From assembly GCF_030013595.1 (NCBI RefSeq), contig NZ_CP122768.1: a stretch of 64,000 bases of DNA; one strand, written 5' to 3'. The stretch comes from Escherichia coli. Lineage in GTDB: Bacteria; Pseudomonadota; Gammaproteobacteria; Enterobacterales; Enterobacteriaceae. How positions within the stretch are numbered: position 1 is the stretch's first letter; the number at the start of each line of letters is the position of its first letter. Of the stretch, positions 48,210-49,689 are shown piece by piece. Below the pieces are notes generated by a model. It made no database searches, had not been told where the DNA came from, and was given only the letters and a program-made list of their open reading frames with translations. A program made the position numbers and the translations under genes.

Positions 48210-49058
48210 ATGGCGACATACCTTATTGGCGACGTTCATGGTTGTTACGATGAACTGATCGCATTGCTGCATAAAGTAGAATTTACCCCTGGGATAGATA
48301 CCCTCTGGCTGACGGGCGATCTGGTCGCGCGCGGCCCCGGTTCGCTGGATGTTTTGCGCTATGTGAAATCCTTAGGCGACAGCGTACGTCTGGTGCTGGG
48401 CAATCACGATCTGCATCTGCTGGCGGTATTTGCCGGGATAAGCCGCAATAAACCGAAAGATCGCCTGACACCGCTGCTGGAAGCGCCGGATGCCGACGAG
48501 CTGCTTAACTGGCTGCGTCGCCAGCCTCTGCTGCAAATCGACGAAGAGAAAAAGCTGGTGATGGCCCACGCAGGGATCACGCCACAGTGGGATCTACAGA
48601 CCGCCAAAGAGTGCGCGCGCGATGTAGAAGCGGTGCTGTCGAGTGACTCCTATCCCTTCTTCCTTGATGCCATGTACGGCGATATGCCAAATAACTGGTC
48701 ACCGGAATTGCGGGGGCTGGGAAGACTGCGGTTTATCACCAACGCCTTTACCCGTATGCGTTTTTGCTTCCCGAACGGGCAACTGGATATGTACAGCAAA
48801 GAATCGCCGGAAGAAGCCCCTGCCCCACTGAAACCGTGGTTTGCGATTCCTGGCCCTGTCGCTGAAGAATACAGCATCGCCTTTGGTCACTGGGCATCGC
48901 TGGAAGGCAAAGGTACGCCGGAAGGTATTTACGCGCTGGATACTGGCTGCTGCTGGGGTGGTACATTAACCTGCCTGCGCTGGGAAGATAAACAGTATTT
49001 TGTCCAGCCGTCGAACCGGCATAAGGATATGGACGAAGGAGAGGCGGTCGCGTCTTAA
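48210..49058 (+). CDS. apaH: bis(5'-nucleosyl)-tetraphosphatase (symmetrical)
   Basis: 282-aa ORF ([23 protein letters not shown]...); stop codon overlaps ccdB stop on opposite strand. Confidence 0.97.
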
Positions 49059-49369
49059 ATCCCGTCGAGCATAAAATCTAATGCCCCTTTAATCAACGTT
49101 CGGTGCGCGCTGGCATCGCAAAATTTCGTTCCCAGCGCGTTAACTGGAACAGTTGCAGTCTCATGCGTCATGAGCACATATTCTTTGCCGTCTACCAGTA
49201 AAAGGATTGTGTTAAGCCGTTCTGGAGGGCGAATACGGATAAATCGTTCAATAGGTGTTAATGGAATAACAATACGGCGATTAATCTCACCAATAATGTC
49301 GCTGGTAACATCGATAACAAAGGGAAACGCGGCGTTCCTGCCGCGACTGCGGTATACCGTAAATTGCAT
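49055..49369 (-). CDS. ccdB: CcdB-family gyrase-poison toxin homolog (104 aa), chromosomal copy
   Basis: [41 protein letters not shown]... aligns with F-plasmid CcdB ([38 protein letters not shown]...); sits directly after ccdA. Confidence 0.88.
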
Positions 49370-49371
49370 CG

Positions 49372-49604
49372 CTAGAAGCTCCGGTACTCATCAGAGAAAC
49401 ATCCGGTTTCATCAGCCAATTGATTTAACGCAGCGATAGCTTCTGCGTTCTCTTCACGCCAACGTGTTGCTGCATGTTTTTTAAGTTCAGCATTGAGCGC
49501 AACCGTAAGGGTGCGCTCATATTTAAGCCTGCATCACGAGCGCGATTGACTAACTCACGGTCGACGGTGACGGTCACACTTTGTGTGGTACGTTTTGCAG
49601 TCAT
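49372..49604 (-). pseudogene. ccdA: CcdA-family antitoxin gene with a 1-nt frameshift: N-terminal RHH part in one frame, C-terminal toxin-binding part in the -1 frame
   Basis: ATG 49604 gives MTAKRTTQSVTVTVDRELVNRARDAGLNMSA then junk to a stop at 49425 (59 aa, below the 60-aa track threshold); other frame encodes LTVALNAELKKHAATRWREENAEAIAALNQLADETGCFSDEYRSF ending 49372; span 233 nt is not a multiple of 3. Confidence 0.8.
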
Positions 49605-49689
49605 GATATCGTGCTCCTGTACAATTTATACGTCTAGTAAACACGGATATCTGCACGTATCAGTGATGCCGGAATTCTAATATACAAAC

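What the first reader, a model, noticed from the sequence alone, without database searches (positions are those of the whole stretch)
49055..49689. Chromosomal ccdAB-type toxin-antitoxin islet between apaH and folA: toxin ORF intact, antitoxin ORF frameshifted
A 631-bp insert sits where K-12, as I recall it, has under 100 bp between folA and apaH. It encodes a CcdA-like RHH antitoxin and a CcdB-like toxin on the minus strand, co-directional with folA. ccdB is a clean 104-codon ORF. ccdA is split: ATG 49604 to codon 31 (MSA) is in one frame, while the C-terminal CcdB-binding segment (LTVALNAELKKHAATRWREENAEAIAALNQLADETGCFSDEYRSF) is in the -1 frame ending 49372, and that frame has no start codon. 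Restoring one nucleotide near 49509..49512 would give a 77-aa protein that aligns with F-plasmid CcdA with identical spacing between the TVTVD and RW landmarks. An intact gyrase poison next to a broken antidote is normally lethal, so either the toxin is attenuated, the frameshift is bypassed, or this is a sequencing or assembly error.
Basis: partly seen in the sequence, partly recalled or inferred. Interest (0 to 1): 0.8.

Follow-up and report, generated by a model that had tools for sequence, protein, structure and literature searches.

The report
Decaying ccdAB islet, antitoxin gene frameshifted
This is the already-known chromosomal ccdAB toxin-antitoxin islet of E. coli in an unusual state of decay: a real, inherited one-base deletion has broken the antitoxin gene while the toxin gene still reads intact, probably because this toxin version is already weakened.

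Summary
Between folA and apaH lies the known ccdO157-type islet. ccdB (49055-49369, minus strand) is an intact 104-codon ORF. ccdA (ATG at 49604) has lost one C of codon 31 (at 49513/49512), so it yields a 59-aa product without the CcdB-binding domain.

The deletion is not a sequencing error. The window has no other frameshifting indel in 37 kb compared with its nearest complete genome. The exact 59-aa product is recorded in 73 blocks of public assemblies. These include a second isolate that differs from the window by 2 SNPs in 20 kb, and an unrelated haplotype.

The allele is rare. None of 2021 islet-bearing complete E. coli genomes has it, and the usual decay order is toxin first.

The most likely reason it is tolerated is that this CcdB allele carries P54T. 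That position is Pro in 127 of 132 diverse CcdB proteins. It corresponds to buried P52 of F-plasmid CcdB, where most substitutions lose activity at low expression. The chromosomal system is also reported to be weakly expressed and attenuated.

Rescue in trans, reduced ccdB translation, or leaky slippage at an in-phase A-AAA-AAC were not excluded.

Verdict: a known system with an uncommon allele, of modest interest.

The parts
49055..49369 (-). ccdB toxin ORF, 104 codons plus stop, intact. It is allele WP_001160962.1 and differs from O157:H7 CcdB at S10G, V28E, S44I and P54T. Its 3' end overlaps the end of apaH by 4 nt.
   Evidence: ORF list. Pfam CcdB PF01845, residues 2-103 against model 1-101/101, E 7e-30. 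PDB CcdB chains E 3.5e-16 and 8e-10. Allele comparison.
49208..49210 (-). Codon 54 of ccdB, ACA (Thr), where the family has a near-invariant Pro. This is the candidate attenuating substitution.
   Evidence: Pro in 127/132 diverse CcdB representatives, Thr in none. It aligns with F CcdB P52. P52 is buried, and only 41% of substitutions are tolerated at the lowest expression level (PMC5062330).
49425..49604 (-). Frameshifted ccdA reading frame: 31 native residues, then 28 out-of-frame residues, then a TAA stop at 49427-49425. The 59-aa product equals STE03188.1.
   Evidence: Pfam CcdA matches only residues 8-33, model positions 2-27 of 71.
49512..49513 (-). Site of the 1-nt deletion: one C of codon 31 (GCC), so GCGCCACC becomes GCGCACC.
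   Evidence: Alignments with intact relatives. 0 of 2021 complete genomes match the deleted version exactly.
49372..49512 (-). The 3' part of ccdA in its native frame: T32..F77 plus the TAG stop. It encodes helix 2 of the DNA-binding domain and the whole CcdB-binding domain, and is now disconnected from any start codon.
   Evidence: Homology to F CcdA 2ADL and to the CcdA 37-72 peptide of 3G7Z. No start codon in this frame.
49476..49482 (-). A AAA AAC heptamer, in phase in the shifted frame (codons TTA AAA AAC). A -1 slip here would rejoin the native C-terminal frame. It is a possible source of leaky bypass only.
   Evidence: Direct reading of the sequence. The heptamer is no more frequent than chance: 18 in the window against 14.6 +/- 3.6 expected. 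The downstream fold is not unusual, z -0.35.
49379..49382 (-). GGAG Shine-Dalgarno of ccdB, 9 nt before the ATG at 49369 and inside the native ccdA codons 74-75. The native ccdA stop (49374-49372) lies 2 nt before the ccdB start.
   Evidence: Sequence. The arrangement is analogous to F ccd, where the ccdB RBS lies in ccdA codons 70-71 (PMC9555053).
49605..49689 (-). folA-ccdA spacer holding the ccdA Shine-Dalgarno (AGGAG, 49618-49614). There is no consensus sigma-70 promoter and no terminator after folA.
   Evidence: Promoter and terminator scan. Sequence.
49690..50169 (-). folA (dihydrofolate reductase), the upstream core gene, co-directional with ccdAB.
48210..49058 (+). apaH, the downstream core gene, convergent with ccdB.

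Best explanation
This is the known ccdO157-type chromosomal ccdAB islet caught late in its decay. A genuine, vertically inherited 1-nt deletion in codon 31 of ccdA truncates the antitoxin to a 59-aa product. That product lacks helix 2 of the DNA-binding fold and the whole CcdB-binding domain, so the main product can neither neutralise CcdB nor repress the operon (shown by sequence plus homology). The lineage survives because CcdB made from this locus is not toxic enough at its native dose (inferred). Three things point that way. First, the allele carries P54T at a near-invariant buried proline, which probably destabilises the protein. Second, the chromosomal operon is reported to be weakly expressed and its toxin less potent than F CcdB. 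Third, losing CcdA removes both the stop-start coupling with ccdB and the folding help that CcdA gives to destabilised CcdB. The intact ccdB ORF would then be a not-yet-eroded relic in a young clone, not a live orphan poison.
For: The deletion is real and heritable.
- The window has only this one frameshifting indel in 37 kb compared with its nearest complete genome.
- The exact 59-aa product is in public records (STE03188.1), on 44 contigs and in 73 blocks. Most of these contigs are 20-200 kb and have intact neighbouring genes.
- GCA_002460785.1 shares the allele yet differs from the window by 2 SNPs and a 15-bp repeat unit in 20 kb.
- The same deletion also occurs on a haplotype about 1.4% diverged.

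Antitoxin function is lost.
- The CcdB-binding domain is out of frame and has no start codon.
- The title of Bernard & Couturier 1991 (reference list) states that the C-terminal 41 residues of F CcdA are sufficient to antagonise CcdB.

The toxin is probably attenuated.
- T54 replaces a Pro present in 127/132 diverse CcdB proteins.
- F CcdB P52 is buried, and only 41% of substitutions are tolerated at the lowest expression level, against 100% at the highest.
- T54 is the one change private to this allele group. G10, E28 and I44 also occur in alleles that keep P54.
- Both backgrounds that carry the ccdA deletion have the T54 allele, and one of them also has ccdB broken by a 13-bp deletion.
- Reviews report CcdB-O157 as less toxic, with fivefold lower gyrase affinity, and chromosomal ccdB as evolving neutrally.
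- Polar substitutions in the core of F CcdB misfold when CcdA is absent.
Against: No toxicity measurement exists for the T54 allele. The argument from F CcdB crosses 36% identity, and P52 mutants of F CcdB are still toxic at high expression. The T54 allele sits in about 306 complete genomes, and none of them has this ccdA deletion. That would also fit a toxin that still needs its antidote. Loss of the repressor should raise operon expression, not lower it. ccdB has its own good Shine-Dalgarno, so loss of coupling need not silence it. The order seen here (antitoxin first) is the reverse of what was seen in a spread sample of 60 complete genomes. There, 11 had ccdB changed in length and none had ccdA changed in length. 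Only one representative each of the +1 class and the 13-bp-deletion class was checked by annotation.
Confidence: 0.55

Rival explanations
1. CcdB is still an active gyrase poison but is neutralised or evaded in trans. Either an F-type plasmid in the lineage supplies CcdA-F, which is known to neutralise the chromosomal toxin, or the lineage carries a CcdB-resistant gyrase such as GyrA R462C.
For: Reviews of Wilbaux 2007 state that the plasmid antitoxin neutralises the chromosomal CcdB but not the reverse. GyrA R462C confers CcdB resistance. The ccdB ORF is intact and the family match is full length.
Against: There is no second ccdA-like sequence in the 64-kb window. Plasmids and gyrA lie outside the window and could not be inspected. 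Dependence on a plasmid would make the chromosome addicted to that plasmid across dozens of sampled assemblies, which is possible but less parsimonious. The P54T change argues for a weakened toxin anyway.
Confidence: 0.15
2. CcdB would be toxic, but too little of it is made. The premature stop, 55 nt upstream of ccdB, abolishes stop-start coupling. Re-initiation at the in-frame ATG at 49412 would send ribosomes across the ccdB start in the wrong frame. Together with a weak promoter, this keeps CcdB below the harmful dose.
For: The native ccdA stop lies 2 nt before the ccdB ATG, whereas the mutant stop is at 49427-49425. A 41-codon ORF (49412..49287) in the same frame as truncated ccdA runs across the ccdB RBS and start. 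No consensus promoter was found. In F ccd the CcdA:CcdB ratio depends strongly on translation features in this region.
Against: ccdB has its own GGAG at optimal spacing. The local RNA fold is no more stable than shuffled sequences, so there is no sign of an occluded RBS. Loss of the autorepressor should increase transcription. In F ccd, lowering CcdA relative to CcdB is lethal rather than protective.
Confidence: 0.15
3. The frameshift is partly bypassed. A -1 ribosomal slip at the in-phase A AAA AAC (49482-49476), or RNA polymerase slippage on the A6 run, returns a fraction of ribosomes to the native frame. This would make a 77-aa hybrid with only residues 32-41 scrambled and the complete CcdB-binding segment intact.
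For: The heptamer is in the X XXY YYZ phase in the mutant frame, and the -1 frame from there is exactly ...KKHAATRW...F77. Residues 42-77 correspond to the F CcdA 37-72 peptide co-crystallised with CcdB.
Against: There is no stimulatory structure: the downstream fold has z -0.35, and no Shine-Dalgarno-like element lies upstream. The heptamer occurs at chance frequency. From my own knowledge, AAC in the A site is a poor shifter in E. coli and A6 is short for transcriptional slippage, so yields of about 1% or less are expected, far below stoichiometric need. All 2021 complete-genome relatives encode the protein in one frame.
Confidence: 0.05
4. The deletion is a sequencing or assembly artefact and the strain has a normal 77-codon ccdA.
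For: It is a single-base indel in a CC dinucleotide inside a G+C-rich quasi-palindrome. None of 2021 complete genomes has it. Other '59-aa CcdA' database entries (P0224, an A6->A5 change) are clearly artefacts of indel-noisy assemblies in which folA and apaH are also split.
Against: The window has no other frameshifting indel in 37 kb. The same allele is present in 73 blocks of independent assemblies with clean neighbouring genes, in a second isolate that differs by SNPs, and on a different haplotype.
Confidence: 0.03

Closest known systems
ccdO157, the chromosomal ccdAB islet between folA and apaH of E. coli O157:H7 (Wilbaux et al. 2007; Mine et al. 2009)
   Same: The insertion site, gene order and orientation are the same. 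The restored CcdA is identical to the O157:H7 protein WP_000125566.1, and CcdB is 96% identical.
   Different: ccdA carries a 1-nt deletion found in none of 2021 complete genomes. CcdB carries four substitutions, including P54T.
Decayed ccdO157 variants (Mine et al. 2009). From my memory of the abstract, most variants had both genes active, about 29% had an inactive toxin with an active antitoxin, and about 2% had both inactive.
   Same: This is a natural loss-of-function lesion in a chromosomal TA islet said to evolve neutrally. In a spread sample of 60 complete genomes I found by length 7 with a 13-bp deletion, 4 with a +1 insertion and 1 remnant. Annotation checks placed the two indel types in ccdB and confirmed the remnant.
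   Different: The lesion here is in the antitoxin while the toxin ORF stays intact. This is the opposite order to the decayed variants I sampled. That class was absent from my sample and, as far as I recall, from the published survey.
F-plasmid ccdAB (CcdA 72 aa, CcdB 101 aa)
   Same: The same two protein families and the same operon layout, with the ccdB RBS inside the 3' end of ccdA.
   Different: CcdB identity is only 36%, and F W99 is Asp here, as in all chromosomal alleles. The F operon is so dose-sensitive that about 80% of single-codon ccdA mutants lose protection, whereas here a frameshift is tolerated.

Membership tests
CcdB toxin family (Pfam PF01845) | Full-length match to the family profile | tested here: met
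   PF01845, residues 2-103 against model 1-101/101, E 7.4e-30.
CcdB toxin family (Pfam PF01845) | Sequence similarity to structurally solved CcdB proteins | tested here: met
   V. fischeri CcdB 2KMT E 3.5e-16; F CcdB 1VUB E 7.9e-10, aligned end to end.
CcdB toxin family (Pfam PF01845) | Conserved buried proline (F CcdB P52) | tested here: not met
   Thr at position 54. Pro in 127/132 diverse representatives, Thr in none.
CcdB toxin family (Pfam PF01845) | NCBIfam equivalog NF010262 (F-type CcdB) score cut-off | tested here: not met
   57.4 bits against a cut-off of 147. The window allele is a CcdB-family member but not the F equivalog. No other chromosomal allele was scored.
CcdB toxin family (Pfam PF01845) | Poisons DNA gyrase and kills the cell when unopposed | not testable with these tools
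   Needs expression in gyrA-wild-type and gyrA462 hosts.
CcdA antitoxin family (Pfam PF07362) | N-terminal ribbon-helix-helix DNA-binding region | tested here: inconclusive
   The 59-aa product matches only model positions 2-27 of 71. The frameshift at codon 32 replaces helix 2.
CcdA antitoxin family (Pfam PF07362) | C-terminal CcdB-binding domain translated in frame with the start codon | tested here: not met
   The domain lies in another frame with no start codon. Adding one base restores it.
ccdO157-type genomic islet | Inserted between the core genes folA and apaH, in place of the 77-bp K-12 spacer | tested here: met
   PMC7232551.
ccdO157-type genomic islet | Near-identity to the O157:H7 ccdA and ccdB | tested here: met
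   The restored CcdA is identical to WP_000125566.1. CcdB is 96% identical.
Programmed -1 ribosomal frameshift site | Slippery heptamer X XXY YYZ in phase | tested here: met
   A AAA AAC at 49482-49476, in the mutant reading frame.
Programmed -1 ribosomal frameshift site | Stimulatory element (downstream structure or upstream Shine-Dalgarno-like sequence) | tested here: not met
   Downstream fold z -0.35. No GGAG/AGGA within about 20 nt upstream.
Programmed -1 ribosomal frameshift site | Two-frame arrangement conserved among relatives | tested here: not met
   All 2021 complete-genome relatives have the single-frame gene.

The most novel reading that the evidence does not exclude
The frameshifted ccdA is not null. 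Slippage at the in-phase A AAA AAC heptamer (49482-49476) restores the native frame ten codons after the deletion. This would produce small amounts of a hybrid CcdA with a complete CcdB-binding domain but a defective DNA-binding domain. The lineage would then run a still-active gyrase poison on a recoding-limited, non-autoregulated antidote supply.
Probability: 0.04. Interest if true: 0.6.

Novelty: already known. Interest (0 to 1): 0.28.

Why it matters
The system, its location and its tendency to decay are already published, so this is not a discovery of a new kind. Its modest value is as a natural experiment. A sampled E. coli lineage lives with a broken ccdA and an unbroken ccdB, a state I found in no complete genome. 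It points to CcdB P54T as a testable natural hypomorph. It also shows that the decay of this TA islet does not have to start with an indel in the toxin gene. Finally, it is a caution for annotation: the far more frequent '59-aa CcdA' entries caused by the A6 run are artefacts of noisy assemblies, whereas this one is real.

Tried and rejected
1. Sequencing error was rejected. There are no other frameshifting indels in 37 kb, and independent assemblies share the allele.

2. I asked whether frameshifted ccdA is common in nature. The abundant 59-aa variant P0224 (478 contigs) looked like support. It turned out to be an A6->A5 homopolymer error in long-read assemblies in which folA, apaH and kefC are also split.

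3. Programmed frameshifting is not supported. The heptamer is in phase, but nothing else fits.

4. The quasi-palindrome around the deletion (49494-49519) was considered as a template-switch hotspot. By my reading of the sequence, the deletion does not make the arms more complementary, so I rejected it as an explanation.

5. I could not decide whether the same deletion on two haplotypes means recurrence or recombination. The two haplotypes have no distinguishing SNP between 49244 and 49958, and the region is mosaic.

6. No known RNA family lies in 48800-50000. There was no PADLOC defence hit and no second ccdA or ccdB copy in the window.

7. The primary papers were not held (Mine 2009, Wilbaux 2007, Gupta 2017). 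A specific phenotype for F CcdB P52T was not found in the texts or supplements available.

Full report
**What is in the sequence**

On the minus strand, downstream of folA (49690-50169) and convergent with apaH (48210-49058), lie two small genes. ccdB runs from ATG 49369 to its stop at 49057-49055 and is an uninterrupted 104-codon ORF. ccdA starts at ATG 49604, behind an AGGAG at 49618-49614. It reads MTAKRTTQSVTVTVDRELVNRARDAGLNMSA, then 28 unrelated residues, and stops at TAA 49427-49425. The sequence TLTVALNAELKKHAATRWREENAEAIAALNQLADETGCFSDEYRSF followed by a stop is open in another frame, from 49512 to 49372. No start codon serves that frame.

**The lesion**

An alignment with an islet from a complete genome (strain WP4-S18-ESBL-07) shows one gap across the islet. 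One C of GCGCCACC is missing, which places the deletion in codon 31 at 49513/49512. The only other difference in the 751 aligned bases is a SNP in the apaH 3' end. With that base restored, the product is a 77-aa protein identical to WP_000125566.1. This is the CcdA annotated both in that strain and in O157:H7.

**Identity of the genes**

- The toxin matches Pfam CcdB end to end, with E 7e-30.
- It also matches solved CcdB structures.
- The restored antitoxin matches F-plasmid CcdA (2ADL) and the CcdA 37-72 peptide that binds CcdB in 3G7Z.
- The truncated product keeps only Pfam CcdA model positions 2-27 of 71.

**Is the element known?**

Yes. This is the ccdO157 islet between folA and apaH, where K-12 has 77 bp (PMC7232551; PMC7167474). 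2021 of 5426 complete E. coli genomes carry it. Reviews make the following statements:

- It degenerates within the species.
- Its toxin evolves neutrally.
- Its toxin is less toxic than F CcdB, with fivefold lower affinity for gyrase.
- Only the plasmid antitoxin cross-neutralises the chromosomal toxin, not the reverse.

The primary papers were not available to me.

**Is the frameshift real?**

A 61-nt probe centred on the deletion matches all 2021 islets with one gap and matches none exactly. The allele is therefore rare, and an artefact had to be considered. Three results argue against one.

- The window is not indel-noisy. Over 37 kb aligned with its closest complete genome (HCP5S3_I2), it shows 20 SNPs, one in-frame 15-bp repeat difference in espY1, an inserted IS element, and this single base.
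- The exact 59-aa product exists in public records (STE03188.1). It was seen on 44 contigs, in 73 blocks of the assembly collection. Most of those contigs are 20-200 kb and have intact kefC, folA, ccdB and apaH next to the gene.
- GCA_002460785.1 carries the same allele. It differs from the window by two SNPs and one 15-bp repeat unit in 20.2 kb, so it is a separate member of the same clone.

For contrast, a much more frequent 59-aa CcdA variant (P0224) results from A6->A5 in the A run at 49482-49477. It comes from multi-megabase assemblies in which folA, apaH and kefC are also split, so those entries are artefacts.

**A second background**

A metagenome scaffold (L004/L018) has the same one-base deletion on a haplotype about 1.4% diverged from the window. 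That haplotype also has a 13-bp deletion in ccdB. Its nearest complete genomes are from swine (several named ETEC, some O139:H1). They share the 13-bp deletion but have an intact ccdA. In the one record I inspected (CFSAN018748), ccdB is annotated as frameshifted. The two haplotypes have no distinguishing SNP between 49244 and 49958, and the flanks are mosaic. I therefore cannot say whether the ccdA deletion arose twice or moved by short-patch recombination.

**How unusual is the state?**

I took a spread sample of 60 islet-bearing complete genomes and compared the net length of the match:

| Net length of the islet match | Genomes | Lesion |
|---|---|---|
| Wild-type | 48 | none apparent |
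| +1 nt | 4 | frameshift in ccdB; checked in SF-173 only |
| -13 nt | 7 | matches the ccdB deletion seen in CFSAN018748 |
| Remnant only | 1 | ccdA and the 5' part of ccdB replaced by other DNA |

No sampled genome had ccdA changed in length with ccdB left intact. So the toxin is usually the first gene hit by an indel, and the window shows the opposite order.

**Why it is probably tolerated**

The window's CcdB (WP_001160962.1) differs from the O157:H7 protein at S10G, V28E, S44I and P54T. I aligned it with 132 diverse full-length CcdB representatives, drawn from a search of 1.84 billion proteins.

- Positions 10, 28 and 44 are variable in that alignment.
- Position 54 is Pro in 127 sequences and never Thr. 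It ranks among the most conserved columns of the family.
- G10, E28 and I44 also occur in natural alleles that keep P54. T54 is private to this allele group.

Position 54 aligns with P52 of F CcdB. In the saturation mutagenesis of F CcdB, P52 is buried, with 3.5% side-chain accessibility. Only 41% of its substitutions are tolerated at the lowest expression level, against 100% at the highest (PMC5062330). That pattern is typical of destabilising, dose-dependent hypomorphs.

A preprint reports that polar core mutants of CcdB misfold unless CcdA is made from the same mRNA. Losing CcdA could therefore further reduce the amount of active T54 toxin. Both backgrounds that carry the ccdA deletion have the T54 allele. 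About 306 complete genomes carry the T54 segment.

**Expression context**

- The simple scan found no consensus promoter and no terminator between folA and ccdA.
- ccdB keeps its own GGAG, 9 nt before its ATG.
- The frameshift moves the upstream stop from 2 nt to 55 nt before the ccdB start.
- An in-frame ATG at 49412 opens a 41-codon ORF that crosses the ccdB start out of frame.

Uncoupling or interference could thus lower CcdB synthesis. However, the local RNA fold is unremarkable, and loss of the repressor should push expression up. I treat this as a contributing possibility, not the main cause.

**Bypass**

In the mutant frame the codons TTA AAA AAC place the heptamer A AAA AAC (49482-49476) in phase. 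A -1 slip there returns exactly to ...KKHAATRW... This would yield a 77-aa protein with only residues 32-41 scrambled and the full CcdB-binding segment. Nothing else supports it:

- The heptamer occurs at chance frequency in the window.
- The downstream fold has a z-score of -0.35.
- There is no upstream Shine-Dalgarno-like element.
- All relatives encode the protein in a single frame.

I keep it as the low-probability novel reading.

**Not testable here**

I could not check whether the lineage carries an F-type ccdA or a resistant gyrA, because both lie outside the window. The window itself holds no second ccd copy. There was no Rfam match at 48800-50000 and no PADLOC match for CcdB, either CcdA form, or the IS transposase.

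**Verdict**

The element is already known, and the particular allele is real, rare and heritable. The most likely story is that a toxin weakened by P54T, in a weakly expressed operon, made the antitoxin dispensable. A frameshift in ccdA could then spread in a young clone before ccdB itself eroded. Interest is modest.

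Noticed in passing
window 33877-35205 (transposase ORF 33984-35192, +): A 1.33-kb IS4-family insertion sequence splits polB (DNA polymerase II) into two ORFs, 32329-33924 and 35167-36018. 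Its 402-aa transposase scores 402 bits against NF033591. From memory, its ends look like IS10. It is absent from the closest complete genome.
   Followed up: partly
window 40296-40339 (espY1): A 15-bp repeat unit differs in copy number between the window and both its closest complete genome and GCA_002460785.1. Apart from the ccdA base, this is the only indel in the compared 37 kb.
   Followed up: no
L004/L018 (ENA metagenome scaffold LUND18-1), L006 (CFSAN018748): The identical 1-nt ccdA deletion also sits on a haplotype about 1.4% diverged, which already has a 13-bp deletion in ccdB. Complete swine-isolate genomes (several named ETEC) with that ccdB deletion have an intact ccdA. Recurrence and short-patch recombination could not be separated.
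   Followed up: partly
L007-L016 (contigs encoding P0224): A 59-aa 'CcdA' seen on 478 contigs results from A6->A5 in the run at window 49482-49477. Those assemblies also have folA, apaH and kefC split, so these entries are homopolymer errors of noisy long-read assemblies, not natural alleles.
   Followed up: yes
window 49494-49519: The deletion lies in one arm of an 11-nt quasi-palindrome (TGAGCGCAACC / GGGTGCGCTCA, 4-nt loop). By my reading, the deletion does not improve arm complementarity, so a template-switch origin is not indicated.
   Followed up: partly
window 49328-49345 (-): A G+C-rich terminator-like hairpin followed by TTTCCCTTTG lies inside the first 15 codons of ccdB. The segment is identical in the four islets I aligned. 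Its significance is unknown.
   Followed up: no
window 49287-49412 (-): A 41-codon ORF starts 13 nt after the premature ccdA stop, in the same frame, and runs across the ccdB ribosome-binding site and start codon out of frame. Re-initiation there could interfere with ccdB translation.
   Followed up: no
L020 (NZ_AP027764.1, strain 2017-02-2CC): A remnant form of the islet. Only the last 72 nt of ccdB remain next to apaH. A gene annotated 'IS1096 element passenger TnpR family protein' occupies the place of ccdA and the 5' part of ccdB.
   Followed up: no
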